Of a stretch of 64,000 nucleotides of DNA, positions 29,364 to 62,100 are shown one piece after another. Made by a program: the position numbers and the translations under genes. Source of the stretch: Eledone cirrhosa (lineage: Eukaryota); NCBI GenBank assembly GCA_964016885.1, contig OZ024742.1, positions 232,996,001 to 233,060,000 of the forward strand, in the 5' to 3' direction. Under the pieces are notes generated by a model. It made no database searches. It was not told the origin of the DNA and was given only the letters and a program-made list of their open reading frames with translations. The stretch's first letter is position 1, and each line of letters opens with the position of its first letter.

Positions 29364-29395
<32 letters not shown>

Positions 29396-32300
29396 CTTGA
29401 AAACAAAGCTACTGGAAAAAGAGAGGAGTCTGTTGTTTTTTATTACTTACCGCAGGACAAAATTAGGATATGGCGACGAGATTACGAATGAGCGGAGAAG
29501 CGATTAGAGCATTTACCGGTGAAGGCGATGTTGTCGCTTGGCTGCGAAAAGTCCGGCTGGTCGCAAGCTTACAGAAGATAGAAGATGTGGCTGGCCTCAT
29601 GGCACTGTACCTCGAGGGGATGCGTTGGCACTCTTCCTAGAGATGGATGAACACAGCCAAAGGGATGCGCAAAAGATTGAGAGGCGCATGATGAAAGCGT
29701 TCGTGGAGGGACCGTTAGCCGCTTTTGCTAAGCTGATGACGATTAGATGGAACGATGAACGCGTTGACATTTTCGCAGCGGAAATACGGCAATTGGCCAT
29801 GTTGGCTGAATATTAGGTGGAATGCGAACGCACGGTGAAGTTGGCGTTCATAAATGGATTTCCAGACGACATAGCGGTGAAACAGCAGCAAGTCCCGGGT
29901 TACAAGGAAATGGAGATGCGTGCACTGGTGGAGCAAGCCCGCATCATAGCAGAAGATGCCAAGAAGAGTGTCGCGGCGATAGCAACTACAGAGGCCCAAG
30001 ACAGCTGGCAGCGAAATGGTGAAAGGGAGGCAACCACCGCACGCGGTCGCCCGCAAACGTTTAGAGGTCGCTGTTTTAGGTGCCAGGGCACGCACATAGC
30101 AAGAGACTGTAGAGAGTCAAGCCGGAAAAAATATGCTACCGGCGTAAGCGACCAGGCCACATCGCTACTAGCTGCGACCAGGGAAACGATCCAAGGGGAA
30201 CTACTGGGCCGGTAGTTGCCCCTTACGAGTAGAGGCGCTGCCCGTGTGAAAGTTTTCGTGAGGGGAAAGCCACAGCGAGCCCTCGTGGACACGGGCTGTA
30301 CGACAACACTGGTGACCACTGGGGTGGTGCAGAGGTGGAGAAGGAAGAGCAGCGTAAGGGCAGTCGATGGTAGAAAAATTGAATGCCGAGGTCGCAGCGA
30401 GGTGGAGATGGCGGTACGGGGAAAGAAAATAAGGCTTTCTGCCATCGTAGTCAACAACGTGGTGGATGGGATCGGCATAGTTATGGGCATGGACGCAATT
30501 GGCCGTCTAGGAGGCGTCACAGTGAACAACGTCGGTGTGTCGTTTGGCGGTGCCGCATCGGTATGCGCTGTGAGTACGCGACAGGAGAACCAGAAGGCCC
30601 ACGAGGAGAAATACCCCGCTTACACTGTGCATGGCAAAGACTTCAAAGCCGTGTTTGATGGGCAACGATGGGTTGTTGAGTGGTACTGGAAGGGAGAACC
30701 ACCAACACTGAAGACCAAAGTGGGCTGCTATCAACACACATTGAAGGGAGACATTAGGAGCGAGTTCGAGCGAGAGGTAGAGAGATGGATTGAGGAGGGC
30801 ATACTGCTTCCCTGGAAAGAGGAGGTGAAGTGCGGAGTATTGCCGTTAATGGCGGTGGCGCAACCCACGAAGAACAAGGTGAGGCCGGTACTGGACTTTC
30901 GGGAGCTGAACGAGCACGTGTCATGCGACACGGGTGGCGAAGTCACGGATGTCTGTGGGGGAAACCCTGCGTGAGTGGAGATGCATGACGGGGGCTTCTA
31001 CAATCGTCGATCTAAAGTCGGGGTATCTACAGCTACACGTGGAGGAGAAGCTGTGGCAGTATCAGCTGGTCAGGTATAAGGGCCGGACATATTGCCTGAC
31101 CAGGCTCGGCTTCGGGCTGAACTCTGCACCGAAGATCATGGTGCCGGTCCTCAAGACCATTCTGGGAAAGGCCGACAAGATGAAGAAGGCTACTAATTCC
31201 TACATTGACGACATCCTAGTGGACGAGTCTCTAGTGTCGGCAGTGGAGGTCACAAGCCATTTACAGGGGTATGGACTGGCTGCAAAGCCGTCAGAAGCGT
31301 TGGAGGGAGGAGCGGCGCTGGGACTTAGGCTACGGCGAGACAGGATGGGCGTCTTAGTATTCCAGAGGGGAAATGAAGTTCCAGAACTGGGCCCAAGTAT
31401 GAGTAGGCGGGAGCTTTTCTCGGCGTGTGGAAAGTTGGTGGGTCACTACCCAATTGCTGGGTGGCTCCGGACGGCATGCAGCTATGTCAAGAGACGAGCG
31501 GGCGGGGTGACTTGGAGTGACAGAGTGGGAGAGAGGACGGTGGCCATGATGCAGGAGATCGTGGTGAAGGCTGACGACCGAGTGCGGGGACGCTGGTATG
31601 TTCCCAAATCGCAGAGCGGGACCGTATGGTGCGATGCCAGCAGCATAGCGCTGGGTGTCACGTTGGAGATAGGAGGTGTTGAGGTCGAGGATGCAGCCTG
31701 GCTCAGGAAGGACGACTGCAACCACATCAATGTGGCCGAACTGGATGCGGTGTTGAGAGGAGTGAACCTCGCCCTGAGGTGGGGACTGCGCACCATCGAG
31801 ATACGCACCGACTCGGCTACTGTACTCGGATGGGTGAGATCAGTGCTCACCAGTGAGAAGAGAGTGCGAACGAGAGGGGCGGCGGAGATGCTGATAAAGC
31901 GTCGCCTGGGAACTTTAGGAGTGCTGGCCACCGAGTTTGACCTGAGGCTGAGCGTAGTTTTCGTGCCCTCAGAGAAAAATAGGGCGCACGTTTTAACCAG
32001 GTTGAAGAAAGCCTGGATGGAGCGCCGGAGGAGGTAGAAGAGGAGATAGCTGCCGTGTGTCGGCTGACCGAGTCGGATCTGAAAAGGTTGCATGACATGC
32101 ACCACATGGAAGTGGATAGGACTCTGTTCCTAGCCAGGAGAATCGACTCGGATGTTAACAGACACAGTGTTCAAAGAGTGGTTAGAGACTGCGTCCAATG
32201 TCAGTCCATTGATCCCGCCCCGGGTGTGCACGAAACGGGAAGCCTCCCGGTGGATTGCGACTGGAGACAATTGGCGGTGGATGTAACACATTACCGACAG

Positions 32301-33267
32301 GGAACATACCTCTCAATGGTCGACTGTGGACCGGGACGGATGGCGATGAAGACGGCCAAGGAAATCACGCGGACGTTGAGAGAGGTGTTCTTGGAGTGGG
32401 GCCCTGTGGACGAACTGCTGATGGACAACAGTGCAGTGTTCCGCTCGGAGGCGCTGAGGGAGATGCTCGATGGATGGAAGGTGGACCGTTTCTTCAGAGC
32501 AGCGAACAGGCCGAGCGGAAATGGAATCGTGAAGCGACACCACCGGACGATCAAAGCAATGGCGGAGTGGGGCCATATCTCACCAATGGAGGCAGTGTTC
32601 TGGTACAACATGTCCCCTCGGGTGGGACAGGTTGAGGAATCGGTGTCACACAGAGCAGTATTCAGATACGAGTGGTGGCACCCGCGCACGCCACCACAAC
32701 GGCCAGTGGAGAGAGAGAATGCATTCATGCAGGTGGGCGAAGAAGTCTGGGTTAAGCCCCCAGATGCATGTTGCACATCTCAATGGGGAAGGGGAACGGT
32801 GACGGCCGTAAATTCCCAGAACAATGTGTCCGTGGACGGAGTACCACGTCATGTCCTGGATGTCCGTAGAATCACTGTGTCAACGGACTCCGAGGAAGAG
32901 GAAACCCAAAGTGCCGCCCCAACACTGCGGAGATTGCAAAGAAGTCGCAAACCACCAACCTGGACAGCAGACTTTCATATGCAGCAGGACGAGGGGGAAA
33001 TTGATCCTTGAGATCTGGGGGGCATGTGGGTATGGTGTGGTGTGTGGTGTGTGGTGGCCGGAGGCTCGGGAGTGCTCGACCGGAAGTGCTTGACCGGAAG
33101 GGCCAGCAGATCTACCTCTCTCTAGGGTGGTCAGCAAACGTGGTGGACGTCAGTCTTGGAGCTCCCGGTTAACGAGTTGGATTGTATGCACGTGGGAGAG
33201 GAGAAACCAGCCATTGGATTAGCAGTGCCAGCGAAAGCAGTAAGTGAAGTAGCTTTTTCTAACCACA
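29054..33267 (+). mobile_element. Full-length, decayed Ty3/Gypsy LTR retrotransposon (antisense to BRCA2)
   Basis: LTRs 29054-29323 and 33025-33267 (TGTGG...CCACA); G-rich PPT before the 3' LTR; flanks actct/tctct. Gag CCHC (CFRCQGTHIARDC), protease LVDTG, RT YIDD, RNase H (CDAS..E..TDS) and integrase (HHCC, VDV..MDN) in PR-RT-RH-IN order, with stops and frameshifts. Confidence 0.95.
29470..33011 (+). pseudogene. gag-pol of the Gypsy element, interrupted
   Basis: Consecutive ORFs 29538-29816, 29817-30215, 30216-30974, 30934-32037 and 32055-33011, separated by stops and frameshifts. Confidence 0.9.
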
Positions 33268-35960
33268 TCTCTCATCATCATCATCCTCATTTTATGTTCC
33301 CTTTCCATGCCATGGTTTGGATGGGCTGTCACAGTCTGAAACCAAATGGGCCAAAGTGACCAATCCTGCTTGTCATGTTCCATATTTGGCATGGTTACTA
33401 CAGTAGGATGCCTTTCCTAACACCAACCACATTATACGATGTATTTTTTTGTGATATCACTTTTATTTTAAACATTTCACATTACAGTGTTGACAGGGTG
33501 CATTTTATCAAGGTACCAACACTAACACTTTACAGTATGTAATGGATGGATTTTATTGTAGCATCAAAACTTAAATTTATTCTTCCAAGTATTAAACTTC
33601 CCTTGTAGTTATTCAAGGAATTTTCATCCTCTGTTTAAAACTGTGTACTAGCCACAAACTTTAGTTTGACATTCAAAGACTTTCAGTACATGATCCATTG
33701 ATTTGAAGTTCTTGAAATATTTTCTCTTTAGTGGATCTCCATTACCCTTTTCATCATCATTACCATTTATATTCATTTTTTTCAATGTTGGCATGGGTTA
33801 TAAATGAAAATGGTATTAGCAAGGGCACACTTTACACAAGTAGATAAGTGATTCATAAGTGGTACATTAAATTATCTAATAAATACCGTATCTAAGCAAC
33901 TATCTTTGAAGGTCAGTTAATTTATTATTTATGGTCTGATTTCTAAACTTAATCCCTCTGACAGTTGTATTGAAAATTCATATTTTTGTTCATCTATCAC
34001 TCACAGTGAAACTTTCATGCTTACTTTCTCTTATAGTCAGTCAGTGGATACAGTATGGCTAAATAGCTAAGAAGTTCACTTGCTATCTTGAGTAAGTGCC
34101 TTTTAACATAGCCTTTGATTGAATCAAGCCTTGTGAATGAAATTGAGTAGACAGAAACTGCATGGAAACCCATTAGATGGACTGTACTTGTAATTCAAAG
34201 GGTCAGCCTTGTCACAATGAATCTCACTGAGAATTATGTTAAAGGTACATGCCTCTGGAATACTCAGCCACTTACACATTAATTTCATGAACAGGCTGTT
34301 CTGGAACACTCATCTTTGAAACTGGTGGAGGTCCATTTACCAGTTAGTAAGTGTGAGTGTATATATATATATTTTAGGCACACTTTCCCCTAATGAGTAG
34401 TAATTCAAAACACTATGTATCTTTTCTCAATGTTGAACCTGATATCAAGCAATACATCTAACATAACTTCCATTACTCCTCTCTTCTACTCTTTTCTTCA
34501 AGTTTGTCATCTATTTTAGTCTAATTTTTTGTACTAACAAAAGAACATTCTCGGTAGAGCTGTCCTGCTAGAGAAAGGGTCGCATGTGGTGGATAGCGAT
34601 GCGGTCACCAGATATGATGGCTAGTTGTGATATAAGTGGGCAACTGCTGCACGAATAAGAAACCCTGGACCGATAGTGGTAAACTACTAGGGGGGAGGGA
34701 GCAATGAGTGACACCTGTAGCTCCCAAGAAAACTCTCACAACCCAGTGACATAGCTACAATGTCACGAGTAAAGGCCACTTCTAAAAAATCCTAGTCTTC
34801 GTGGGTTTGACAAAGTACCAGAAAGGTGAGTGGCACGAATAAGACCACTGAAACTGAAACTACAATATGATGAGGAAACCAAGAATGAAGAATTATACTG
34901 CATCATCCTTTGCGTGTGATAACAAAGAGTGCATTCAGGCCTTAGGTAGATTGCAGTCTCCATCTCATGTTGCAAAAACTAGTGATAATCCTGTGACCAG
35001 TCCTGGAAAACTCTGATAGTCTTTTCGCCCCCTTTCACCCTACTTTTTCTACAAATCTCATTGTTTCCAACTGGTTTGGAGGTCCTACTTGTTGATAACA
35101 CACAGAAAAAAATAAGTCACAGGAAAAACTCAAGGGAGGGGAGGTTATACAGGAAAAAGTCGATTGCCAGAATCTTGGAGGTTAGATTAGTTAACAGCAC
35201 ACAAAAAAAAAGTTTTCCCCACTGAAATCGAGTAGGATATTCTATAAATTTACTGCTGTTTTTAGCAGGTCAAGCAATCACAAAGACCCCATCATTTTCT
35301 TGACTTGAGGAATGTAGTTTTGAAAAGCAAGAGTATTGGGAAAAGTTTTGTACAGGGCCCTAAAAATATGAAATACTAGGATGGTGCGTGAGAGTGATTT
35401 GGGAAACAACACAACATGCATATTAAATGGGTTATAATAAAATGATACATAACAAATTGGCAAATTTTGAGATTAATACAAAAATAACTATAGCAATGCA
35501 ATTGATTCTTTAGCTTTTAAAAAAGAAATATAACCTCCAGGATGCTATCACGAATGACTGATATCAGAGTATAAACAGCTTAGCATCTGCATAAGGTACA
35601 ATGGTATAAAGAATTTGTTGTTTGAAAGCAATGAGGATGTTACGTTGAAGCCATTTGTTACTGGTATGTATACTGTGTGTGTTAGCTAAGATGAAAGAAA
35701 CTATTGGTTGATGTGCACAGCAGACACTACTTTTATTGTGCACATGTCCCAAATAAAATACAGTTGAGTGCTTTTGTCAGCTGAAACACTGAAAATTCTC
35801 ACAACCAATGTTCTAAACCAATCAAAATACTCAGAGTAGAGAGATGTTAGCAGGAACAAAAATATATTTTTACCACATTAATTGTATGAGTAAAGAACAT
35901 TAAGCTTTACTTATAAAATTATCCTATAAAATAAGAAAAAAAAAATGAAATTGTTTTTAC

Positions 35961-36042
35961 CTCAGTGCTGTTTGATAAATGCTTGGTGAGAGTAAGGATT
36001 GGAAAGAACAGTCCTTCTTGTTAGAACTAAAATCATGTAAAT
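35961..36042 (-). CDS. BRCA2: BRCA2 exon (YLHDFSSNKKDCSFQSLLSPSIYQTAL)
   Basis: ttttag|ATTTAC...CTGAG|gtaaaa; 82 nt, phase 1-2, the phase change needed between the flanking exons. Confidence 0.7.
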
Positions 36043-36409
36043 CTAAAATAAATAAATAAAATAACAAAACAATAAAAAATAATCGTGAAAATAATTAACT
36101 GAAACAAAAAAAATCTAATGTATATGGTTGTTCGCAATTGCATGTAAAAAAAAAAAGACAGTTTGGAAAATATATATATATATATATATGTACATACATA
36201 TATGTATACAGACGTATACATATATATATGTGTGCATGTATGTATATATATATATATATATACATACTACTGTACGTCTGTATACATATATGTATGTACG
36301 TATACATGCTTATATTTAAGTAACAGCCGTACTAAGAGTGAGAAATGAAATTTTGTTTCATTTTTTCCGTTTATATATATATACATACATACATATATGT
36401 ATGTGTATA

Positions 36410-41231: not shown

Positions 41232-41312
41232 AAATAGGATCTGTAACCAAGGGATGAATTCTCTGCCGATCTTCAGTTTCATGTGAAGTAGAAGGAGTCC
41301 ATATAGGAGAGC
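41232..41312 (-). CDS. BRCA2: BRCA2 exon (SSPIWTPSTSHETEDRQRIHPLVTDPI)
   Basis: tttcag|GCTC...ATTT|gtaaat; 81 nt, phase 1-1; resembles human STPDGTIKDRR...LEPI. Confidence 0.75.
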
Positions 41313-44729: not shown

Positions 44730-47700
44730 TCCTTTTACTATTTAGTTGTAAAAGTTTGTTATCTTCCTGTTGCAAATTTTCAAATATACTTGGATATGGG
44801 TCAATCTCATTTTTTTCAGCCAAATTTCCTATTTGGTTTGATTTTTCTGATAATATATTGCTGTGTGATATTTCAGGGTTTATTAAATTCTCTTCACCAC
44901 TGTTCTCTGAGAGAATCTGTCTAGCACATTTGACAGATTTCTTTGAAACAGTTACATTTTTGCCTAAAGCTGTTTGAAATGCCAGAATATGTGGGTTTGA
45001 GTCAAGCTGGTTGTTTTTACCATTATCAGCCAAATCACCCTTTATTTCAGATTCGTTTGATTTACCTGATATTATATTTTTGTGTGATATTTCCTGCTTT
45101 GATACTTGATTTATTGAATTCTCTTCATTATTGTTTTTTGAGAGAATTTCTTTAGCACATTTAACTGACTCTTCTGAAACTGTTACATTTTTGCCTAAGG
45201 CTGTTTGAAATGCCACAAAATGTCCAGCTGTATTACTACTATAAGCAGAAGTAGATTTTTCAGATTCATTCTGTTTGGAGACATGATCTTTCCCTGAAGT
45301 CACTTGAACTGTATTACTTTTGATAAAGTAAAATTCCTTTTCCATCTTTTCAACAGCAGATGTCATGGCTTGTTCCTCTGAGATATCATCATTCATTTGG
45401 TTGTCAACAGGAATATCATTAAAAGCCTTTATTTCTTTACTAGCATTATGAATGTTTGGCTTAATACACATTTGTAATGGTATAAGGGATGGTTTATTAT
45501 CATCTGGTCTGAAGGGCTGGTTTTCATATATTTCCATTGATTCTGCTAATATATCATCAGAAATATCAGAATTTTTTGATATTATGCTCTCATAATCCTC
45601 TTCTTTTCCACTGTAAACTGATGTTGATTGTGGATTGTCTGAGGTGCATCTTGATCTTTTGCAAACTGAGTTTATGTTTATATCAGATTCTTCTGATAAG
45701 TTTCTTTTTTTACTCTCAGATGTTTCAATTGGATCAGAATCATTACCTTCTGAAAAACTTTTCTGAAATTCATCTAATAATTGGTAGCATTGTTCAGAAA
45801 TGTCTTCATTTGGGGAAATTATTGACTTCTCTTCCACTAAACCTGATGTATTATTAGCAGGTGCCATCGTAGCTATTTCAGTTTCAGAAGAATTTAAATC
45901 AGTAAGCAAAAGATCACTTACAACATTTTTCTCAAGAGATTGATTCATTTCTTTTACTGAATCAAGATTTAATATATTTTCTACTTTCAAATTAGTGTGA
46001 GGTTCAAGATGTAATTGTTGGCTGTCGTTATTAGTAGCACAAACATTATTGCAATGGTTATTATCGGATGCTATGTTAGAAGATACTCTTATACATGAAG
46101 ATGAAATTTCATGAGTTTGAAGGTTTGTAATACTAGGTCTAACAATTTTGCTTTCAATTTCTAATAATTTGGGGGTTTTACTCAATGTTTCACCATTTTC
46201 ATCAACAATGCATTTAAAATCATCAGATGGGAAATGTTGAATTTTTTCTTGTAAATATTCATTTGTTGTTGAAGACACTCTTAAATGATTAGTACTATCA
46301 ATTTTACTTCCACCTAAATCTCTAGATTCTGTGACATATTCTTTGACATTTTGTTCCTCTGCTTCATTAATTATATGTTTCTCCATTAGATTAATAATTG
46401 GAAAAGTGCTTTTTGATTCATATTTAGCACCAGCTATGTCTCTATCTGTGTTCTCTAAGCATGAGATTTGTTTTTCAACAGGAGAAATAGTGTTGGCCAT
46501 CTGTTCTTCACAAAATATATTATTGCATTCATTATCATTAATAGAGTTTAAACTAAATTTATTATGAAGTAAGGCAGATTTATTAATTATTCTGGGAGAT
46601 TTGAATGGACAGAATCTTTTTGGCAATTGTTTTTCAGAAATTGAATTAAATGTAAGTTTTCTTTTAAGGCTTCTACTTTCTTCAAGCTTCCTTTCCTTAA
46701 TATTCTGCATATTGCAAACCAATTCAAGAGACTCCTTATCACTAGTTTTTGTGGAATTTATTGTTTTAGGAAATAAAATAGCTTCTAGATATTGCTCATT
46801 ACCAGTCATGAATTGTTTAGCCTTTTGTAAGCTCTGTTCCTTTATTGGAATTTTTCCTCCTTTGGCTGAAGAAAATCCTTGGAAATCTGGAACAGTTTCA
46901 TTAAAGTCATCTACTAAAGTTTGTGCCTTTTGTAAGCTCTGTTCCTTTATTGGAATTTTTCCTCCTTTGGTTGTAGAAAATCCTTGGAAATCTGGAACAA
47001 TTTTATCACAATCATCTACTAAACTTTGTGCCTTTAGTAAGCTCTGTTCCTTTATTGGAATTTTCCCTCCTTTAGCTGTAGAAAATCCTTGGAAATCTGG
47101 AACAGTTTCATTAAAGTCATCTACTAAACTTTGTGCCTTTTTTAAACTCTGTTCCTTTATTGGAATTTTTCCTCCTTTGGCTGTAGAAAATCCTTGGAAA
47201 TCTGGAACAGTTTCATTAATGTCATTTAGTAAACTTTGTGCCTTTTGTAAGCTCTGTTCCTTTATTGGAATTTTTCCTCCATTTGATGTAGAAAATCCTT
47301 GGAATTTCTCAACAGTTTTATTACAGTCATCTACTAAACTTTGTGCCTTTTGTAAGCTCTGTTCCTTTATTGGAATTTTTCCTCCATTTGATGTAGAAAA
47401 TCCTTGGAATTTCTCAACAGTTTTATTACAGTCATCTACTAAACTTTGTGCCTTTTGTAAGCTCTGTTCCTTTATTGGAATTTTCCCTCCTTTAGCTGTA
47501 GAAAATCCTTGGAATGTCTCAACAGTTTTATTACAGTCATCTACTAAACTTTGTGCCTTTTGTAAGCTCTGTTCCTTTATTGGAATTTTCCCTCCTTTAG
47601 ATGTAGAAAATCCTTGGAATGTCTCAACAGTTTTATTACAGTCATCTACTAAACTTTGTGCCTTTTGTAAGCTCTGTTCCTTTATTGGAATTTTCCCTCC

Positions 47701-49278
47701 TTTAGATGTAGAAAATCCTTGGAATTTCTCAACAGTTTTATTACAGTCATCTACTAAACTTTGTGCCTTTTGTAAGCTCTGTTCCTTTATTGGAATTTTC
47801 CCTCCTTTAGCTGTAGAAAATCCTTGGAATGTCTCAACAGTTTTATTACAGTCATCTACTAAACTTTGTGCCTTTTGTAAGCTCTGTTCCTTTATTGGAA
47901 TTTTCCCTCCTTTAGCTGTAGAAAATCCTTGGAATGTCTCAACAGTTTTATTACAGTCATCTACTAAACTTTGTGCCTTTTGTAAGCTCTGTTCCTTTAT
48001 TGGAATTTTCCCTCCTTTAGCTGTAGAAAATCCTTGGAATGTCTCAACAGTTTTATTACAGTCATCTACTAAACTTTGTGCCTTTTGTAAGCTCTGTTCC
48101 TTTATTGGAATTTTCCCTCCTTTAGCTGTAGAAAATCCTTGGAATGTCTCAACAGTTTTATTACAGTCATCTACTAAACTTTGTGCCTTTTGTAAGCTCT
48201 GTTCCTTTATCGGAATTTTCCCTCCTTTAGCTGTAGAAAATCCTTGGAATGTCTCAACAGTTTTATTACAGTCATCTACTAAACTTTGTGCCTTTTGTAA
48301 GCTCTGTTCCTTTATTGGAATTTTCCCTCCTTTAGCTGTAGAAAATCCTTGGAATTTCTCAGTTTTATTACAGTCATCTTCTAAAGTGTGTGCCTTTTGT
48401 AAGCTCTGTTCCTTTATTGGAATTTTTCCTCCTTTGGCAGTAGAAAATCCATGGAAATCTGGAACAGTTTCATTAAAGTCATTTAGTAAATTTTGTGCCT
48501 TTTGTAAACTCTGTTCCTTTATTGGAATTTTTCCTCCATTTGTTGTAGAAAATCCTTGGAAATCTGGAACAGTTTCATTAAAGTCATCTACTAAACTTTG
48601 TGCCTTTTGTAAGCTCTGTTCCTTTATTGGAATTTTTTTACCTTTGGCTGTGGAAAACCCTTGGAATTTCTCAATAGTTTCCTCACTGTTAATCCTTAAA
48701 TGTTCTGTCTTCTGTAAGCTTTCTTCATTTATCTGAATATTTTGCACTTTAATATTTTGATCTCCATTTTCAACCTTTTCAATGATAATTTTTTTCTGAC
48801 CTTGCTGCTTATTGCTATCATCTTGTTTAATATCATCTGATAATTTAGTATCTAACTCATCATTGAAACTCTCAGAAAAATCTTCTGATGATTGCCAATA
48901 TACTATCTGGCTGGCTGTAAAATGATCTTCAACAGAACTATTGTGTTTAGAAATATCTTTGAACTGTTTGCAGTAAGGAAAATCAGTTTTGTTATATATT
49001 AAAATATTTTTACACTTGTTATCTTCATTAGGCCTCTTTGTGACAATACCTGAAGAAACAGAAGCCTGTGTTACATTGTTCTGGGGTAAAGAAGATTTAT
49101 TTTTAGAAGATCGTAATGAATATTTGTGAGGAAATATATGGGGAGTCTTGTGGATTTTACCAATTGCTGCTTCATGCATTAGTTTCTCTTTATGATAAGT
49201 TAGAAAAGGCATTTGTTGTTTGTCTGTGATCTGATCAACAGAAGTAGAAAGATTTTCTTCTGAATGTAATGAGATATT
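44730..49278 (-). CDS. BRCA2: BRCA2 BRC-repeat exon (equivalent to human exon 11), 4,549 nt
   Basis: 1514-aa ORF extended upstream to ttctag|AATATC; donor AGGA|gtaagt; phase 0-1. Contains 18 tandem and 2 dispersed BRC motifs (F-x-T-A-x-G-x-K...S-L-x-K-A). Confidence 0.95.
44904..45219 (-). repeat. Two dispersed BRC repeats (AFQTALGKNVTVS..SVKCA..IL), about 230 bp apart
   Basis: Both match the BRC consensus F-x-T-A-x-G-K-x-V-x-V-S-x-x-S-x-x-x-A and lie within a local duplication. Confidence 0.85.
46810..48680 (-). repeat. Coding tandem array of 18 x 105-bp (35-aa) BRC repeats
   Basis: The plus-strand anchor gaaaatcc recurs at 46871, 46976 ... 48341 (105-bp period), then 48443, 48548, 48653. 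Unit FQGFSTAKGGKIPIKEQSLQKAQSLVDDCNKTVET. Confidence 0.97.
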
Positions 49279-50355: not shown

Positions 50356-50441
50356 CTTATCTCTGTATATATCGGGAAACAAAGAATGTTCTTCTGTTAT
50401 CAGTGGGGCATTAGTATTCTTGCTTTTTTGTTGCAAAACAC
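50356..50441 (-). CDS. BRCA2: BRCA2 small exon (GVLQQKSKNTNAPLITEEHSLFPDIYRDK)
   Basis: tttcag|GTG...GATAAG|gtatag; 86 nt, phase 1-0, links the two large exons in frame. Confidence 0.8.
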
Positions 50442-51513: not shown

Positions 51514-52335
51514 CTTCTACAGTGTCGTTTGTTTGGACAGCAGTACAGCCTTCCTCATTGTTGTTAGTTTGAACAGAGCAGTTTTCCACAGGGTCATCAG
51601 TTTGGACAACAGCACAATCTATCACAGTATTGTTAGTTTGGATAGCAGCACAAGTTTCTACAGTGTTGTTAGTCTGGACAGCAGCACAACCTTCTACAGT
51701 GTTGTTAGTTTGATCAGCAGTACAACCTTCTGCAGTGTTGTTAGTCTGGACAGCAGTACAGCTTTCTACAGTGTTGTTAATCTGAACAGCAGCACAATCT
51801 TCTAGAGTGTTGTTAGTCTGGACAGCAATACAACCTTCTGCAGTGTTGTTAGTTTGGACAGCAGCACAACTTTCTATAGTGCTGTTAGTTTGGACAGCAG
51901 CACAACTTTCTGCAGTGTTGTTAGTTTGGACAGCAGTACAGCTTTCTACAGTGTTGTTAATTTGGACAGCAGCACAACCTTCTGCAGTGTTGTTAGTTTG
52001 GACAGCAGCACAACCTTCTGCAGTGTTGTTAGTTTGGACAGCAGCACAACCTTCTGCAGTGTTGTTAGTTTGGACAGCAGTACAGCTTTCTACAGTGTTG
52101 TTAATTTGGACAGCAGCACAACCTTCTGCAGTGTTGTTAGTTTGGACAGCAGCACAACCTTCTGCAGTGTTGTTAGTTTGGACAGCAGTACAGCTTTCTA
52201 CAGTGTTGTTAATTTGGACAGCAGCACAACCTTCTGCAGTGTTGTTAGTTTGGACAGCAGCACAACCTTCTGCAGTGTTGTTAGTTTGGACAGCAGCACA
52301 ACCTTCTGCAGTGTTGTTAGTTTGGACAGCACCAT
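51514..52335 (-). repeat. Coding 36-bp minisatellite, about 23 x 12 aa (AAVQTNNTAEGC)
   Basis: Plus-strand unit ttagtttggacagcagcacaaccttctgcagtgttg, with degenerate copies on both sides. Confidence 0.95.
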
Positions 52336-53757
52336 TTTCTTCAATATTCTTGATTTGGACAACAATATTGTCCACAGTATTACTAGGGCTCCTAAAACAG
52401 CCTTCAACAGTTTTATTGTTTTGAACAACATTACTTTCCACAGGGTTGTTGGTTGGGATTACATTGTTTTTTGCAGGCATATTGTTGTTGTTGTTGTTGT
52501 GAACAATAGATTTAACAAGATCAGATGTAATGTTAGGAAATATTGGGTTGTTAGAATCAGAGCAGTTATTTTCTGTTGAGTTATTTGTTGAGAAAGTTTG
52601 CATCTTGAACGAAAATTTTACTGCAGGTGATGACTGATGGATTTGACTTGCAGTAGGATATGAAAAACGTTTAGTTTTCCTTTTTAATCTATTTTTCTTG
52701 CTTAAAAAAGGAGTGGTTGTTGTTTTATGTTCCAAAGTTACATTTGGTTCACAAGAGATTAATAAACTATTAAGTTGTTTGTTTTCTGTGTTTTCACACT
52801 CTGAATAACTGTCAACTTTTTGTCTTTCAGAAGTCCTTTCACAAACACCATCAACCAATTTAACTTCTAACAAAGTTTTAACAGAATCAAATTTTTCACC
52901 ATGTTTTTCTTGACTATATATATCATTTAAGCAACCCTCAACAGTTTTTAAATTATTTTCACTGGTTGAACTGTGTTGCTTTGACTGTATTTTCTTTGCA
53001 TGTTCTAGATTTTTGTCAATATCTAAATCCACAACATTCCTAGATATTTCACAAGTATCCACTGGATTATTTAATGGTTTGGAAGGATTTTGCTCAAGGG
53101 TTGCAGATTCGAATGAATTATTAAGATTTGAGCTTTTACAACAGTTTACATTTTCTTCGTTCATTTTAAATTCATTTTTATCAAAATCTAAATTTACTGT
53201 AACTGGACTATGATTTACATTATTCTTAAGGGAATTATAATCTGGAGTCAGATCACCTGATACTTTAGTAATACAGTGTATATCAGTTGGATGGAATATC
53301 ATTGTTGTATCTTCTGAAACTAACTCACTCTTAAGCTTATCCGATAGAACTGGTGATAATATATCAGAAAAATGAACACTCTTATGCAGTGATGTCTGTT
53401 GTTTATTTTTAATTAAAATAGAATGTAGAAGAGAACTATCTTCTTTCTTAATACTATCAACTGGAGGAGAAGACATGTTTATTGTTTCAGTTGTGTGAAA
53501 AAAAAGAGTTGGATAACCTTTAGAATCATCATTGTTAATAGTTTCAAATAATACAGGGGAAGATGTTTCTGGAGAATATTTTGAGAGATCAGTAGTAGTT
53601 AGGCTTTTATCATTGTCATTCAACTCAGTCTGGATTGTTGTAGACAATGTAGCAGAGTCCTCTAATTCAGATGTCTCTCCATTTGGAGAAAATAAAGCAC
53701 GGGCAAAACATTTTGATTGTGTAATTTCACTCATGTTTTCTTCATCTTTACACACAC
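51514..53757 (-). CDS. BRCA2: BRCA2 large exon (low complexity, with 12-aa repeat tract)
   Basis: 751-aa ORF; tttcag|GTGT...GAAG|gtaata; 2,244 nt, phase 1-1. KRKTKRFSY resembles human KKTNKFIY. Confidence 0.88.
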
Positions 53758-53973: not shown

Positions 53974-54116
53974 CTTCAGAGTCAATCTTATTATAACAAG
54001 GTGGAGTTGCCAAAGAGCTGGTCCAAGAATAAGTGCTATCGTCCAAGCTAATTCCCAAACTGTTTCTGTTATTTGCTGTAGAAGTTGAGAAAACTTCATT
54101 TTCAGGCTGCTTGAAG
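53974..54116 (-). CDS. BRCA2: BRCA2 exon with conserved SLG..SWTSSLATPP motif
   Basis: tttcag|CTTC...GAAG|gtatat; 143 nt, phase 2-1; SWTSSLATPP matches human SWSSSLATPP. Confidence 0.92.
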
Positions 54117-54515
54117 CTGAAATTATTTATATAAAATGAAAAACAACATTTATAATGAAACAATACAAAAAAAAAAACATTGCATTTATTGGAATTTGCA
54201 TGGGCAATTTATTTACTAAAATATTCATGGCTTATATCAAAACCACGAAACAATGGAATATAGAGAAATGTTAGATAAGTTTGTATATCATGAGGAGACA
54301 GAGAATAAAGAGAAAAGAAGAATTTTTCTTTGACAAGATCTTGCTTGAAACATTAATACTCATCTTACCCTTTGATATACAAACTTATTTGTGAATTATT
54401 CTAAATGATTTTTTGCCAATGCAAACCCCATTAGCTTTACAAAAAAATCTGTTTCTTTTATTTATTTAAATTGAATTTCAATAAAATAAGTATGAAAAAT
54501 AAATTTTGAAAATAC

Positions 54516-54606
54516 CTGTTGGATTGTAGACTTTGTGATTCAGAATGTTCTTTTATAATGTTTTGTTTGTGAGATTTTCTCTTATTACTAAAATGAGGAG
54601 TTGATG
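54516..54606 (-). CDS. BRCA2: BRCA2 exon (ASTPHFSNKRKSHKQ...)
   Basis: ccatag|CATCA...CAACAG|gtattt; 91 nt, phase 1-2, bridges the neighbouring exons in frame. Confidence 0.75.
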
Positions 54607-57600
54607 CTATGGGATAAACATGAATATTCATTAATTAAATCAAGCAAAAGTAAAATTGATATTTTATCAAATATATTTATACGGACAAAATAAATCAATT
54701 GGAGGTTGCTGAGTCCTTGACACAACGGATGAGTCCTCTCATCCCTTTTTGGGCATAGTTTCTACAGCTGGATGCCGTTCCTATCATCAACCACCTAACA
54801 TGGTAAATTAGGGGCATTTTTTATGACATCAACACAATAAAAGTAATTGTGTGGTGACTGAAGGGTCCTCTCAACCCCTTTTTCAACATGGTTTCTATGG
54901 TTGGAGCCCTTCCTAACACCAACCACTTTACAAGGTAAATGTGTTGTAGAATTTCTTCTGATTGTGTTCTAGGTTCAAATTCCATCAAGGTAAACTTTGC
55001 TTTTCATCTTTTTGGGGTTGATAAATAAAGTACTATTACTGGAGTTGAATCGCATTTTGTCTTGCTCTCTCGGGAAGAAATTGGGTGTTGTCAAACTTAG
55101 AGATGGATAGATCTGCCAGGTTTGGATGCCCGAGGCATGTCATATGTCACAATGTCAACTCTACCAGGATTTGGGGGCTCAAAGCAAGATGCTGACTACA
55201 TGTTTTAACCCATTTGTCACCACATGTTTAATGAAATACACTCTCTTTCAATTAAATAATGAAGAATTTTGTAGGATTTACAAAAAAATAAATAAAGAAA
55301 TCCATAATCATTTCATTACTATGAAAGTAACTTAATATATGATTCTTATACAAAATTATAATGGACGATTTTAATTTAAATAGGAACTCTTTTATTAAAC
55401 CAGAGTTGGTATCAAAAAAGATTAATTAATTTTAAAAAAAAAATCAAAAACTTTGACGAATCTAATAAACAACTAACAAGCTAGTGTTTAGAACACAAGT
55501 TAACAAACATTTAGTGCATAATATATAATTGTTGGTTTTTCATTTCAATACAAACACTATTAGATGAACAGTTTTTGTTAAAAAGAACCAGTGGGATTTC
55601 TCAGGCAGGTTGGGTAAAAATATAATTTTCCAAAGTCATGTTTTTTCATTTCAGAGCTAAAATTTTGAATCATAATACTGTTTAGTATATACACTCACTC
55701 ACACACAAGATTATCATTTATTTAAATAAAAAGAAATAAAAGAAAATGGAATAAATAAAAAGCATTTATTGTCATATTGTACTACCAATCCAAACACCCC
55801 ACAGGGCAGGCCGGGTGCCTTCTGCATTGCCACCAACACGACTACCTTACAAGGTAGACTTGGTGCCTCATATTATGTTAATATGACCACCTCACAGGGA
55901 GGGGAGGGGGCTGGACACCTATTTGTCATGTAACCAACACGACCACCCTGCAAGGAGGGTTGAGTGCTCTTTTGTTATGAGACCAACATGGCCACCTTAC
56001 AAGGTGGACTGAGAGCTTTCAGCCACTCCAGCAGCATTGTGGGAGAGTGTGTTCAACTTTCCATATGTGTATACATGGGTTGGTCAAGAGAAATGCATCA
56101 GATGTGGAAAGTGGGGTAGGGGTTATGTAGGATGATGGTTGGAGAAGTAGGTCTAGGCTGAGGTACTTAGCTGGTGAAGGGTAGAGTGATTAAGACGTGG
56201 GAGGAATAGGGGAAGAGGTGATGCTAACTGGAGACCACTAGATGTTGCTTATTCCTGTACACATGGGAGAGAGGGTCTTCTGCAGTACTGCATAATGCCA
56301 GAGATCACAATCCTGTGTCATCTCCTGTGAGAGTTGTGTTAGGTCAGTTTTTATCACCTTATCCCAAGCTTTCTTATGTCTACCATAGCTACCATCAACT
56401 TTTAGCACCCTGCCCCTTTTTATACAACTGTCATTCTTCATATGCATTACATGTCTATACCACTGCATCTAATCCTGCTTATGCCTCGTACCTCTCTCAG
56501 TTCATTTACACTTTGCCGTTCATGTATATTATTTTCTTATTACACATCCATTGTAGCATACCAGCTTTCTTTGCAATCTTTTAGGTGCCACACAATGAAT
56601 TTCCTTACAGTTTCTGGTTATCAGATTCACTCAAAAAGCCCTAGTTGGCCTGAGGAAATAGTAGAAGACACTTGTCTACAGGCCACAAAGTGGGACTCAT
56701 TCCTAAACCATGTGGCTCCAAACCTACATTTTAACTACACAGTCATGCCTGCACTTCTAAAAAAGTGTATATAATATGGAACACAGTAGTTTTGAAGATA
56801 ACTCATAATCCTAATTATCTTACTTCAAGTATGTTGTGACCAGTAACTATTCTAAGCCAATAGTATAGAACAATCATCATCATCATCGTCACTGTTTAGC
56901 GTCCATTTTTCCATGCTTGCGGATTAAACTATTTATTCATTTTCCCCTGTTTATATTTTGTAATTATGCAAATTATACTGGCTAAATATCTTTACAATTC
57001 CTTTTTCAGTTTCATTTACTGACAATGTCTAAAAAAGACTTAAAACATGTCCGTAGCTGTCATCTGAAATTATCCCCCTTCCTCTTTGAATGTCGCTAAG
57101 GCAGCTAGTTTTTTTGTTTTCTTTCTCCAACTAAAAGGCAAATTTCAATTCATTGAGAATTTTTGGTGTACATGATTCAATACTTCCCCACCTACTTGAA
57201 TTATTTACAGTACCTATTTACCTACATTCCTAAAAGAAAATTATAGAAATAATATAACTAACATATTTGATTGTCATTTCTTTTGTTCATATATTCAGCA
57301 GTTATGGGGACTGTTAATCCTCATCAACTAGAACATATTGCAGCCCTTTGGGAATTTACATGTCATGTGAGATATAGCAACTTTAAATAGGCAAATGATG
57401 TTTTACTAACAAATACATATTTTGAAATGTGAAAAAAAAAAAAGAAAAGAAAAAGGAAAACACACACACAGACACAGAGAGAAAGAATGTACATTCTCAT
57501 TACCAGAAATAATAATCAGTCCATTACAAAATATGGTATATCAGTGTGACCTAGTTTTGAAAGATTAGGATTTGAAATTGGGGCTTTAAAAAGTAGCTAT

Positions 57601-59044
57601 TCATTAATAACTAACTATTAATTTGTTCAATTATATCTGAAAGAGTCTCTTCTAATTAAGACAACACCAGGTCAATAACCAACTATTTAGTCTACAAGAG
57701 GTTGTCAGAGAAACTTAACCCTTTTCATACCAAACTGCCTCAAACCACCCCTGGTTCTATGATACAAAGCTGTTTCTCATCATCATCATTGTTTTTACAT
57801 TGAATTTTCCATGTTGGCAGGGGATGGATGGGATATTTTCAGACTACATTTTACAGCCAGATGCACTTCTTAGATTCAATATTATGTGAGATAAAGCCTT
57901 TACTGCGAAAATTCAATAGTAAATATAGAGTAATGTAAATGTTATAGGGTTAAACCTTTTAGTTGCTTCTTACATGCAGGGATATGTTATACCTATTCTA
58001 TTATCATACTTATCTAAAATTCTTCCATTGTAATTTTATGTAAGAACATTAGCTTAAGAAGGACTTAGTTATTTTATAAAATTCCTCCAAATTCTTGGTT
58101 ATTTAAAAAAATTACTTAAAAATTGTAAGCAGTATATTTCATTAGAAATATGATACTATCATTTAATTTAACCCACCCACGCAAACTCCTCAAAAGAGGT
58201 CTCCCTTTTCAACTAAATGCTATGATACTGCACTACTTTTGGAGAAGTCAGAAAATAGACAAAAAGTAGACAGAATTAGAGAAACGAGATGGCTAAAATA
58301 TTGTGTGCTAGGCTGTAGTGCATATATGCCCTTGTGCACTGCAAGCAGTGCACTGAGCTGGTGCTTTTCTTGGTTTCATGGCATGAAGCGACTGAGAGTA
58401 CAAGACTTTCCCCTGAACAGGACACTAATCCATTGCAGGGTTAAACCCCTAGCTATTGCTGGTACTCATTTTCAAGTGAGTATACTGGAGCAACGTGAAA
58501 TTAAGTGTTTCGCTCAAGAACACAACACGCAACCCAGCCTGGGAATCAAACCCACAACATTATGATTGTAAGTCCAACACCCTTACCACTAGGCCATGTG
58601 GCAAGGCTGTACTACATCACATAACATCTACAGGTGATGATGAGATTATCTTTGATGATTCACAACAAGAAAGGGCTACAACAATTAAACACAACTAAGA
58701 CTAATTTCATGTTCACATCCAATGACACCAGATCAACAGTTGCTAACAATGTCATTTGTTGCTAGACCCCAGACTAAACATGTATTCCAGCTGTGAACAT
58801 CATATCTTACTTTTCAGGTGTCGTGTATCTAGGACTTCATTTATTTTCTAAAGTTCATAGAGTGTCATTTGAGAGGGATTTTGCTGCTTTCTTTAGTTGA
58901 TTGAGCAATTGCATAGTGACTCTTTTGTTGGTTCAAATAATTTTGTTTTTTCAGTCAGCACTTGCTTTGAAATCTACAGCCCACTAAGATTATGTACAAA
59001 GTACATTTACAGTTGAATTCAATTTATTTAATATCATACATTAC

Positions 59045-59176
59045 CTTGAACCGGGCTTCCAGTGAGTAGCAACAAATCTGAGGTTTCGTAGTTGAAAATG
59101 GTGGTGTTACTAGAAGGTACATTCTTTCCAAGCAACTTTTGGAGTGATAATTTTACAAACCAGTTAGAAGCTGATT
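59045..59176 (-). CDS. BRCA2: BRCA2 N-terminal exon (PALB2-binding-like SNWFVKLS motif)
   Basis: tttcag|AATCAG...GTTCAAG|gtaatg; 132 nt, phase 1-1; ESASNWFVKLSLQK resembles human LNWFEELS. Confidence 0.75.
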
Positions 59177-62100
59177 CTGAAAAAGTAAATAAGCAAAAAA
59201 AAAAAAGAAAACAACAAAGATAATATGAAACTCTATCTAAATAAAAAGACAAAACAAAACAAACCATTCTGATTATGGGACACTTAGTTTTTCAGTAGTA
59301 ACGATGGTAATGGAAATCCCTGAACTCTACTGCAATGAACATGCCAAAATAGACTGGTCGTTGTCATAAAATTCTACAAATAAATATTACAGTTCTGGTT
59401 GTAGGTGCCAGTCAGTTGAGAGCATATGTAAGGTGGAAGGGTCGATAGTGTTAAAATACACACACATATACACCAGGTCCGAACACAGAGGAGCCAAACT
59501 TCCACTACCACCACCTCCGCCTCTCTCACCCTCTCCATCTCTCACTATTATGAGCAAATGGGGTGCTACACACTGGCTGCCCCACGGCACCGGCAGACTG
59601 AATAGAAAAGGCGTTTCTCTAGAGAATGGTGAGGGAGATGTACTGGAAGAGCCATTCCAGCTCGTGAGGCTCACACCTGCAGCTAGCCATCTCAGCGCCT
59701 ACAGTGGTGAGTAGGGAGATGGCCCTAGGGCCATGGACACCAGAAAAGACAAAAAAGATGTCAGACTAGATGTAACTGCATGATGAGGTAACCATGTCAT
59801 TATACAAGAAAAGATGAAAGAAAACACATTACCAGGAATACAGGCAAAAATATAATAAAGACTGGATGATAAGGAAATCATAACAGTCTATAGTTACTAG
59901 ATTAAGATAATACAAACAAATGACTAAGAGGGTGAAATGGTGTTAGTGAGACATATGTGGCTTTGAAGCCTGGGCAATATAATATTTACATGGGTAAACA
60001 CAGACACATATACATCATCATCATCATTATTTCATTTTACGTCCGCTTTTTCCCTGCTTGCAAGGGTGGGACGGGAACTGATTCTGGTTTGATTTCTACA
60101 GCTGGATGCCCTTCCTAACACCAACCTCATTTACAGTGAGTGCTGGGTGCTTTTTTGCCGTGGCACCTCCACGACCACTTTGCAGTGGAATGATATGGAC
60201 CCCAGTCCTATCATCTCATTTCTACAGCTGAGTAAACTGGAGCAATGTGAAATAAAGTGTCTTGCTCAAGGAAACAACACATCACCCGGTCTGAGAATTG
60301 AACTCACAACCTTTCGATTGCAAGGCCAATGCTCTAATCACTAAGCCATGTGCCTCCATCATCACTATTTTTACATTTGCATTTCAGTTGGCATGGGTTG
60401 GATGAAGCTTTCTGTGAGGCAATGTTCAAGAGCTGGATGTCCTTCTTGACACCAACCTCTGTTCACACTGAACTGCTGAGCTGTAGGACATAAACACACA
60501 TATATACATACTCTACATCAGAAGTTCTCAAACCTTTTGGGCCACCACCCTCCTCATGACCATGTAATACCCTCAGCGCCTCCTGATATATATAATATAT
60601 ATATATAATCATCATCATCCCCATTTAACGACCACCTTCCACGCTAGCATGAGTTAGATGGGTTGTCCCATTTGAAGCTGGTTGGGTCAGGTGACCGTAT
60701 CCTGCTCATATAGAACTGTTTCTGGCTAGATTTCTACAGCTGGATGCCCTTCCTAACGTCAACCGCATTTACAGTGTGTGTATATGTATGTGTGTGTGTA
60801 TCATCATCATCATCATCATCATCGTTTAACGTCCGTGTTCCATGCTTGCATGGGTTTGGACGGGAGTTTTCCCACTTGAGGCAAGAGTGGTTGTCTTGCT
60901 CGCATAGGACTGTCTGGCGGATTTTCTACAGTTGGATGCCCTTCCTAACACCAACCACATTTACAGTGTGGGGCTGGGAGGTTTTTACCGTGTTGCCTAC
61001 ACGGCCACATTACAGCGTGGACTGTCTGGCAGGTTTTCTACAGCTGGATGCCCTTCCTAACACCAACCACATTTACAGTGTGGGACTGGGACGTTTTTAC
61101 CGTGTTGCCTACACGGTCACGTTACAGCGTAGAAAGACAAACACCAACCACATTTACAGTGTGGGACTGGGACGTTTTTACCGTGTTGCCTACACGGTCA
61201 CATTACAGCGTGGACTGTGTGTTTTTTTTTCGTGACACCTACACGATCTCATTTGTTTCGGCCTGGATTTTGTGGCACCAACATAACTTTACATTGAAAG
61301 GGGCGGTGTGGATGGGGTGGTGGTGGTGGGACGGGGGTGTATTTTGTTAGAGGGTTTTACTTTGTATTTAGGTAATGCGGGTCTTCTCTGTTACTGAGTA
61401 CCGCCAAAGGTCTCGGTCCAGTGACATTGTCTTGGAGAGGTATATATATATATATAACATCCAGTCCTAAATAAATGAGGTCGTGTAGGTGTCACAACAA
61501 AAAAAACACACAGTCCACGCTGTAATGTGGCTGTGTAGGTAACACGGTAAAAACCTCCCAGTCCACACTGTAAACGTGGTTGGTGTTAGGAAGGGCATCC
61601 AGTCGTAGAAAACCTGCCAGACAGTCCTATACGAGCGAGATGACCAATCTTGCCTCAAGTGGGACAATTCCCGTCTAAACCCATGCTAGCGTGGAAGATA
61701 GACGTTAAACGATGATGATGATGATGATGATATACATATATATATATATTTATATATATATATATATATATATAAATGGAAAAAATGAAACAAAATTTCA
61801 TTTCTCACTCTTAGTACGGCTGTTACTTAAATATAAGTATGTATACGTACATACATATATGTATACAGATGTACAGTAGTATGTATATATATACATACAT
61901 GCACACATATATATATATGTACGTATGGGTTTACCAAATATTTATTATAATGCTCAGTGTGTTTGTAAACAAACAAACAGCCCGAATTAAGCCGTACAGT
62001 GTTTAGCAACCATCGTTGTTCTTTGTTCAACACTGACAAAGGAACGATGTACTAGTTTTAAGCTTATTAGCTATCGTCAGCACCATATACCTTCTTGCCA

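What the first reader, a model, noticed from the sequence alone, without database searches (positions are those of the whole stretch)
47280..48360. BRC array shows recent concerted evolution: identical core, diverged edges, likely coding VNTR
Seen: units 4-8 are identical in protein and almost identical in DNA (one synonymous change visible near 48211). Variant blocks occur in adjacent pairs (STSK x2, STSN x2). The 'FNETVPD'-type linker appears at both ends of the array and the 'CNKTVET' type in the middle. Inference: unequal crossover or slippage amplified the centre recently, so BRC copy number may be polymorphic. A recombination mediator would then have its own valency altered by recombination.
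Basis: partly seen in the sequence, partly recalled or inferred. Interest (0 to 1): 0.7.

Follow-up and report, generated by a model that had tools for sequence, protein, structure and literature searches.

The report
Homogenised BRC array in octopod BRCA2
An octopus-like animal's BRCA2 gene carries 18 back-to-back RAD51-binding repeats that were recently copied over one another, a real but already-known kind of repeat turnover (shown before in trypanosomes and fruit flies), now seen in a cephalopod.

Summary
Units 4-8 are identical in protein with one synonymous change, at 48211; units 4-12 differ by 1 nt on average, edge units by about 11. Concerted evolution is supported: all 18 units share a motif absent from 40 of 40 units at the same position in four other octopods, which have 12, 11, 7 and 10 units; the last unit is a chimaera of new and ancestral sequence. 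Polymorphism within the species was not testable. The idea is not new: variable BRC arrays are documented in Trypanosoma brucei and Drosophila, and I found homogenised arrays in 4 of 34 named BRCA2 proteins examined. Two additions: a second, non-BRC 36-bp coding array in the same gene is also freshly homogenised, which argues against selection specific to RAD51 binding; and 6 of 18 units have lost the FxxA alanine, so effective valency (12) is near that of O. vulgaris (11). Verdict: new member of a known kind, modest interest.

The parts
46780..48666 (-). Tandem array of 18 BRC repeats, 35 codons each (unit 3 has 34), no spacer
47410..48354 (-). Near-identical core, units 4-12 (0-2 nt differences per pair; units 4-8 at 47830-48354 identical in protein)
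48211..48211 (-). Single synonymous change private to unit 5
47515..47724 (-). Units 10-11, FxxA alanine replaced by serine (STSK pair)
47200..47409 (-). Units 13-14, FxxS (STSN pair); a 150-nt stretch is identical at one-unit offset; unit 14 is closest to unit 2 at the other edge (4 nt)
47390..47915 (-). 211-nt perfect match at three-unit offset (47915-47705 against the copy 315 nt lower), carrying the K-linker and FxxS variants in cis
48457..48561 (-). Unit 2, FxxT variant, edge-type linker
46885..46989 (-). Unit 17, FxxT variant, edge-type linker
48355..48456 (-). Unit 3: in-frame 3-nt deletion in the linker, second module LEDD; junction between edge type and core type
46780..46884 (-). Unit 18: chimaeric terminal unit; first 65 nt of array type (3 differences), last 40 nt ancestral terminal type (25 differences), matching the terminal unit of four other octopods
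   Evidence: (Fisher p 7e-11)
48667..48771 (-). Degenerate half-unit before unit 1, without FxxA, not homogenised; orthologous to the half-unit in O. vulgaris, O. sinensis and O. bimaculoides
44730..49278 (-). 4549-bp BRCA2 exon holding the array (AG acceptor, GT donor)
44905..45219 (-). Two further, distal BRC repeats in the same exon (about 45136-45219 and 44905-44988), 77 residues apart
51514..53757 (-). Upstream 2244-bp BRCA2 exon
51514..52331 (-). Second coding minisatellite, 36 bp (12 residues), about 23 copies, not BRC; first 11 units are 8 identical A and 3 identical B units
50356..50441 (-). 86-bp exon linking the two large exons in frame
41232..41312 (-). 81-bp exon after the array exon
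1538..36046 (-). Nine downstream exon matches in collinear order (36046-35972, 27732-26653, 24705-24502, 23339-23205, 15707-15633, 11830-11705, 7168-7010, 3890-3714, 1702-1538), the last seven covering the start of the DNA-binding domain; the gene runs on past the window's left end
   Evidence: tblastn with O. bimaculoides and Argonauta BRCA2; boundaries approximate
53975..59183 (-). Three N-terminal exon matches (59183-59031, 54634-54542, 54148-53975)
   Evidence: tblastn with O. vulgaris protein; boundaries approximate

Best explanation
This is the RAD51-binding BRC array of an octopod BRCA2, built as a spacer-less 105-bp coding minisatellite that turns over by misaligned exchange between units (unequal crossover, slippage or conversion; these cannot be told apart here). 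Shown from sequence: an array already stood at this position in the octopod ancestor, between a conserved half-unit and a conserved terminal unit; in this lineage one unit type overwrote the whole interior and the first 65 nt of the terminal unit; a later burst expanded one sub-type in the middle, leaving a related older sub-type on both sides. Whole-unit (105 = 35 x 3) changes keep the frame, and purifying selection acts on the BRC motif but not on the 7-residue linker. Inferred: units bind RAD51 through FxxA and an LFDE-like module as in other BRCA2s; units with serine or threonine in place of the alanine bind weakly, so copy number overstates valency; copy number drifts nearly neutrally within limits and is probably polymorphic in the species (about 0.65, untested).
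For: Gene identity and open frame: (four exons join to 2319 codons without a stop, all AG/GT). Alignment to human BRC4 in PDB 1n0w puts FSTA on FHTA and LVDD on LFDE (E 0.019, weak alone). Species-specific overwrite: IPIKEQSL in 18 of 18 window units and 0 of 40 units of O. vulgaris, O. sinensis, O. bimaculoides and Argonauta; 17 units form one side of a branch with support 100/99 when unit 18 is left out, all 18 do on residues 1-22 with SH-aLRT 97, whereas units of the three Octopus species group by position across species (11 changes for 12 units, 11 for 11, 7 for 7). Exchange: 36 of 120 informative site pairs show all four gametes; perfect runs of 379 nt at one-unit and 211 nt at three-unit offset; chimaeric unit 18. 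Selection: 10 synonymous and 14 non-synonymous alleles in codons 1-28 (pN/pS 0.35, binomial P 0.012), 1 and 10 in the linker (P 0.88). Not BRC-specific: the 36-bp array in the preceding exon is also homogenised here and degenerate, with equal length, in O. vulgaris and O. sinensis. Precedent: T. brucei alleles of 5-12 near-identical repeats with a degenerate last repeat (PMC2408642); D. yakuba 3- and 5-repeat alleles with chimaeric units and no sign of atypical selection (PMC2882388). Ala-to-Ser weakens RAD51 binding in human BRC4/BRC5 (PMC3136434; PMC2800230).
Against: One haplotype only; no second allele or close relative was found. With all 35 columns and unit 18 included, the window clade has bootstrap only 42 (SH-aLRT 98). 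Trees rest on 22-35 columns. Four-gamete failures can also come from recurrent mutation. The pN/pS test is crude (alleles counted once against a majority unit, four partitions tried, whole-unit P 0.062). The comparison species are distant (flanks 51-57% identical), so 'recent' is bounded only by the 1% divergence inside the core. Unit counts in other species come from predicted proteins of assemblies I could not check. No binding was tested.
Confidence: 0.75

Rival explanations
1. Assembly or polishing artefact: core units were over-counted, or made identical by ambiguous read mapping, while 300-500 bp at each edge stayed anchored to unique flanks.
For: The diverged edges (3 units and 5 units) are about one short-read insert long. 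In T. brucei the assembly gave 15 repeats and mapping gave 11 in the same strain (PMC2408642). No reads were available.
Against: The core keeps private and local variants (48211; K linkers in units 9, 12, 13; FxxS in 10, 11, 13) in a structured pattern. In the 36-bp array the identical units lie at the 5' end, beside unique sequence, not in the middle. The window has no N, spans a 189-copy AT tract and has no frameshift over 2319 codons, which suggests accurate long reads (inference). An artefact cannot put a species-specific motif into all 18 units, edges included.
Confidence: 0.08
2. Adaptive expansion: selection for more RAD51-binding sites drove the copy number up in this lineage.
For: 18 units against 7-12 in four relatives; purifying selection on the motif; RAD51 foci rise with repeat number in T. 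brucei (PMC3553974); several repeats give resilience under oxidative stress in mouse cells (10.64898/2026.01.07.698272, abstract).
Against: 6 of 18 units have lost the FxxA alanine, leaving 12, against 11 of 12 and 10 of 11 in O. vulgaris and O. sinensis. A non-BRC array in the same gene expanded and homogenised too. Short alleles persist in Drosophila without a selection signal; one repeat supports viable, fertile mice.
Confidence: 0.15
3. The expansion is recent but fixed: one burst swept, and the array is not a variable-number locus today.
For: No second allele seen. In O. vulgaris and O. sinensis most units keep positional orthology, so octopod arrays can be fairly stable.
Against: A 484-nt perfect tandem stretch (379-nt run at 105 offset) is a strong substrate for misalignment (established behaviour of minisatellites, recalled); even the more diverged arrays of the two sister species differ by at least three unit events; the T. 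brucei and Drosophila arrays are polymorphic.
Confidence: 0.3

Closest known systems
Trypanosoma brucei BRCA2 BRC array (PMC2408642, PMC3553974; passages read)
   Same: Tandem array of nearly identical BRC units, under 1 base change per repeat in the homogeneous part, divergent last repeat, recent lineage-specific expansion against relatives.
   Different: Unit 44 residues (132 bp) against 35 (105 bp) here; there all upstream units are alike, here there are two sub-types with older ones at both edges; allelic variation (5-12) is measured there and untested here; relatives there have 1-3 repeats, here 7-12 in an older array.
Drosophila dmbrca2 BRC array (PMC2882388; main text read)
   Same: Repeat number differs between and within species; chimaeric units attributed to unequal crossover.
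   Different: 3-11 repeats, clearly diverged from each other; no near-identical core.
BRCA2 of Octopus vulgaris, O. sinensis, O. bimaculoides, Argonauta hians (P0001, P0065, P0003, P0002)
   Same: Array at the same position, 35-residue period, conserved terminal unit, distal BRC cluster.
   Different: 12, 11, 7 and 10 units with 64-68% identity between neighbours against 92% here; no identical neighbours.
BRCA2 of Nilaparvata lugens, Mya arenaria, Strongylocentrotus purpuratus, Aphis gossypii (P0064, P0066, P0067, P0016)
   Same: Independent homogenised tandem arrays: 30 units at period 35 (0.91 neighbour identity), 32 at 41 (0.77), 14 at 38 (0.84), 10 at 47 (0.96).
   Different: Different unit sequences and, mostly, periods; counts from predicted proteins, not verified.
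KNL1 MELT-repeat arrays (PMC4558858; passages read)
   Same: Disordered scaffold with docking-motif repeats; episodic homogenisation, middle units more alike than outer ones, decay of some units, attributed to unequal crossover.
   Different: Different protein and partner; phospho-motif.
Human BRCA2 BRC1-8 (PDB 1n0w; PMC2800230, PMC3136434; passages read)
   Same: FxxA and LFDE-like modules at the same spacing; a natural Ala-to-Ser weak repeat (BRC5).
   Different: Eight dispersed, diverged repeats; valine or leucine here where BRC4 has the second phenylalanine.

Membership tests
BRCA2 | BRC repeats (Pfam PF00634) | tested here: met
   E 5.8e-114, 19 stretches; 20 by my profile scan
BRCA2 | Helical, OB1 and tower/OB2 region downstream of the repeats | tested here: met
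   Seven collinear exon matches at 67-96% identity to O. bimaculoides BRCA2 residues 1452-1791; that protein carries these Pfam domains. The window's own exons were not scanned against Pfam.
BRCA2 | OB3 and C-terminal tail | not testable with these tools
   Gene runs past the left end of the window (last match 1702-1538)
BRCA2 | Open frame through the array exon and its neighbours | tested here: met
   Four exons, AG/GT sites, 2319 codons, no stop; other exons not joined
BRCA2 | N-terminal PALB2-binding motif | not tested
   N-terminal exons matched only to the O. vulgaris prediction
BRC repeat | FxxA module | tested here: met
   12 of 18 units; FxxS in 4, FxxT in 2
BRC repeat | LFDE-like module (two hydrophobic residues, acidic fourth; PMC2800230) | tested here: met
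   16 of 18 (LVDD 14, LLND 2); units 3 and 18 fail; 10 of 18 have both modules (counted by hand)
BRC repeat | Binds RAD51 | not testable with these tools
Concertedly evolving tandem array | Units closer within the species than to orthologous arrays | tested here: met
   Mean core identity 0.90 within, 0.62 and 0.60 to O. vulgaris and Argonauta; clade support 100/99 for 17 units; 18 of 18 against 0 of 40 for the diagnostic motif
Concertedly evolving tandem array | Exchange signatures and edge effect | tested here: met
   36 of 120 incompatible site pairs, order permutation P 0.0004; chimaeric terminal unit
Coding VNTR | Tandem, fixed-period, in-frame units in an exon | tested here: met
Coding VNTR | Copy number differs among alleles of the species | not testable with these tools
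   No second allele in the searched protein sets; cluster look-up unavailable; no reads
Coding VNTR | Copy number and order differ among related species | tested here: met
   18, 12, 11, 7, 10; from predicted proteins

The most novel reading that the evidence does not exclude
The array is a self-buffering valency dial: as exchange raises unit number, weak FxxS/FxxT units spread with it and hold the number of strong RAD51 sites near 10-12, and the resulting BRCA2 allele in turn sets repeat instability in this lineage, which would explain why two unrelated coding arrays of the same gene were homogenised together. Homogenised BRC arrays of 10-32 units recurring in cephalopod, bivalve, insect and echinoderm BRCA2 would then be a general, undescribed feedback. 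The evidence does not exclude this but is thin: FxxA-intact counts are 12, 11, 10, 6, 6; two independent hits on the alanine codon among 14 non-synonymous alleles are not significant (about 0.065 by my hand estimate); nothing links genotype to instability.
Probability: 0.08. Interest if true: 0.7.

Novelty: new member of a known kind. Interest (0 to 1): 0.32.

Why it matters
Why BRCA2 has several BRC repeats is still debated. A spacer-less array with a ladder of natural copy numbers (7-18 across octopods) and with strong and weak units mixed in one molecule is a usable natural experiment on valency versus affinity, and the second, non-BRC array in the same gene is a built-in neutral control. 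It also corrects the picture, stated in the trypanosome papers read, that near-identical tandem BRC arrays are exceptional: they turned up in 4 of 34 named proteins examined plus this window (a biased sample). My six searches on this point listed no paper on a cephalopod or other non-Drosophila invertebrate BRC array, in a library that lacks most subscription papers. The principle itself is known.

Tried and rejected
Looking for a second allele or a close relative: shorter-protein search gave 3 weak unnamed hits; the 50% representative library gave O. vulgaris (52%) and Argonauta (41%) as the octopod-like hits and nothing closer among the 150 listed of 218; the cluster-member look-up could not be made, so the 16 members of the O. 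sinensis cluster and the 3 of O. vulgaris were not compared. Unnamed hits were left out of all counts. The 722-codon ORF on the + strand over the array has no Pfam match and is rejected as a shadow of the repeat. Non-BRC Pfam hits on the exon (DUF1107 and others, 0 passing stretches) are rejected as repeat-summed noise. One regex hit in O. bimaculoides (residue 73) was a false unit and was dropped (it lowers the O. bimaculoides means, which I do not use). The HMMER script failed and was replaced by a sliding profile (0 hits in 98,837 shuffled residues); that scan counts the half-unit in O. vulgaris and O. sinensis (13, 12), whereas one search counts full units (12, 11). O. bimaculoides unit 3 was left out of the 22-column tree and window unit 18 out of the 35-column tree. 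One search was too loose (8078 papers) and uninformative. No fold or complex was predicted: no octopod RAD51 was at hand, the pair is a textbook one, and a model could not rank Ala against Ser. No AU test was run. No absolute date is given, for want of a rate. The species was not identified. No supplementary files were read.
Full report
What is there. Tandem Repeats Finder reports a 105-bp array at 46820-48680 with 17.8 copies and 94% matches. It lies in a 1536-codon open frame on the minus strand that matches the Pfam BRCA2 repeat at E 5.8e-114 with 19 stretches. Cut at the first phenylalanine of each repeat, the array has 18 units from 48666 down to 46780, all of 105 nt except unit 3 (102 nt).

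The observation. All details check: units 4-8 are identical in protein and differ in DNA only at 48211 (synonymous, unit 5); STSK is in units 10-11 and STSN in 13-14; the PD-ending linker follows units 1, 2 and 14-17, the CNKTVET/K linker units 4-13. Units 4-12 differ by 1.0 nt per pair on average, the seven edge units (1-3, 14-17) by 10.9, edge against core by 12.6; similar units are neighbours more often than chance allows (P 0.00043, 100,000 shuffles of units 1-17). The two edges are related to each other: unit 2 is 4 nt from unit 14 but 15-17 nt from core units 4-12, as expected if the core type expanded inside an older block.

The gene. The best hits are octopod BRCA2 proteins (O. vulgaris, Argonauta hians, O. 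bimaculoides; O. sinensis). tblastn with three of them places collinear exons on the minus strand from 59183 to 1538, the last seven at 67-96% identity to the DNA-binding-domain region of the O. bimaculoides protein. The array exon is 49278-44730 with AG and GT ends; joined with its two upstream neighbours and one downstream neighbour it reads 2319 codons without a stop. The unique flanks of the array are 51-57% identical to the three Octopus species and 39-40% to Argonauta, while O. vulgaris is 98.75% and 89.9% identical to O. sinensis and O. bimaculoides in the 3' flank. The source is therefore an octopod outside that trio (inference); I did not identify it.

Comparison across species. At the same position O. 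vulgaris has 12 units, O. sinensis 11, O. bimaculoides 7 and Argonauta 10 (irregular spacing). All 18 window units carry the motif IPIKEQSL; none of the 40 others does. In the 58-unit tree the window units need one change of label (bootstrap 42, SH-aLRT 98); without the chimaeric unit 18 support is 100/99, and on residues 1-22 all 18 group with SH-aLRT 97 (few columns, many forks open). Units of the three Octopus species instead pair by position across species. Between the sister species, O. sinensis lacks a counterpart of O. vulgaris unit 5, has one unit for units 3-4 and two for unit 7: at least three unit-level events against 1.25% flank divergence. These counts come from predicted proteins and could carry assembly errors.

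Mechanism. Shown: the array is bounded by a non-homogenised half-unit that is orthologous in the three Octopus species and by a terminal unit whose last 40 nt are ancestral (25 differences from the majority unit) while its first 65 nt are of array type (3 differences; Fisher p 7e-11). Inside, 36 of 120 pairs of informative sites show all four allele combinations, there is a perfect run of 379 nt at one-unit offset, one of 150 nt joining units 12-14, and one of 211 nt at three-unit offset that carries the K-linker and FxxS variants together from units 9-10 to 12-13 or the reverse. The linker ends in EK in most units of the other Octopus species, so the T of units 4-8 is derived and marks the youngest block (inference). 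Inferred: misaligned exchange by whole units, which keeps the frame.

Selection and valency. Among units 1-17 the BRC part (codons 1-28) holds 10 synonymous and 14 non-synonymous distinct alleles (pN/pS 0.35, P 0.012), the linker 1 and 10 (P 0.88), the whole unit 11 and 24 (P 0.062) (crude, four partitions tried). The units align to human BRC4 with FSTA on FHTA and LVDD on LFDE. Twelve of 18 units keep FxxA; four have serine and two threonine at the alanine; 16 of 18 keep an LFDE-like module; 10 keep both. In human repeats the Ala-to-Ser change lowers or abolishes RAD51 binding (PMC3136434, passages; PMC2800230, passages). FxxA-intact counts in the relatives are 11 of 12, 10 of 11, 6 of 7 and 6 of 10. 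The extra copies here thus add little predicted valency over O. vulgaris. That transfer from human to octopod proteins is untested.

The preceding large exon holds a second coding minisatellite, 36 bp, about 23 copies at 51512-52331, with no Pfam match. Its first 11 units are eight identical A units and three identical B units in the order AAAB AAB AAAB; the orthologous stretch in O. vulgaris and O. sinensis is degenerate and of equal length in both. Two unrelated arrays of one gene being freshly homogenised favours a locus- or lineage-level cause over selection for RAD51 sites, and because its identical units sit against unique sequence it also weakens the polishing-artefact rival.

What is known. 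T. brucei BRCA2 has a tandem array of near-identical 44-residue units with a degenerate last unit, alleles of 5-12 repeats, and an assembly count (15) that proved too high (11); the authors attribute the variation to ongoing expansion and contraction (PMC2408642, passages), and RAD51 foci scale with repeat number (PMC3553974, passages). Drosophila BRCA2 varies from 3 to 11 repeats between species and within D. pseudoobscura and D. yakuba, with chimaeric units and no atypical selection signal (PMC2882388, parts 1-2 of 3). KNL1 shows the same homogeneous-middle pattern (PMC4558858, passages). A preprint reports viable, fertile mice with one BRC repeat (10.64898/2026.01.07.698272, abstract only). 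Among 34 named BRCA2-like proteins that I picked from the 145 hits, four non-octopods have runs of 10 or more units with neighbour identity of 0.75 or more: Nilaparvata lugens (30), Mya arenaria (32), Strongylocentrotus purpuratus (14), Aphis gossypii (10); the three fish proteins have runs of at most 3. The sample is biased towards arrays by the query. Searches for an octopus or cephalopod case listed nothing relevant, and the broader ones listed only trypanosome and Drosophila cases.

Verdict. Real, correctly described, and concerted evolution is well supported; within-species polymorphism is likely but untested; the principle is published. New member of a known kind; interest 0.32. The bolder reading (weak units buffer valency and the BRCA2 allele feeds back on repeat instability) is not excluded but has little direct support (0.08).

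Noticed in passing
window 51512-52331 (-): Second coding minisatellite of BRCA2 (36 bp, 12 residues, about 23 copies), first 11 units in a higher-order pattern of identical A and B units; degenerate in O. vulgaris and O. sinensis; function unknown, no Pfam match.
   Followed up: partly
window 30216-32034 (+), inside a BRCA2 intron: GC-rich retroelement remnant antisense to the gene: aspartyl protease, DUF7047, reverse transcriptase and RNase H-like Pfam hits spread over two reading frames; the adjoining ORF 31983-33011 had no hit.
   Followed up: partly
window 44905-45219 (-): Two distal BRC repeats 77 residues apart; 39 apart in O. vulgaris, O. sinensis and O. bimaculoides, and four at a 40-residue period in Argonauta, so this second cluster also changes in number and spacing.
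   Followed up: partly
P0064, P0066, P0067, P0016: Long homogenised BRC arrays in planthopper (30 units, same 35-residue period), soft-shell clam (32), sea urchin (14) and cotton aphid (10); only 10 of 27 sea-urchin and 23 of 33 clam repeats keep FxxA.
   Followed up: partly
hits (Aphis gossypii): Many annotated isoforms with lengths 1549, 1596, 1643, 1690 and 1784, steps of 47 residues equal to the aphid repeat period, which suggests BRC number could vary by splicing there or that the models are artefacts.
   Followed up: no
P0065 versus P0001: O. sinensis lacks about nine residues at the junction of the half-unit and unit 1 relative to O. vulgaris and O. bimaculoides.
   Followed up: no
window 46568-48736 (+): 722-codon antisense ORF over the array, no Pfam match; taken as a shadow of the repeat.
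   Followed up: yes
window 7829-7948, 17097-17210, 19120-19227, 23553-23660, 60907-61211: Short tandem duplications sharing similar words at several intronic or flanking places, probably copies of one dispersed repeat family.
   Followed up: no
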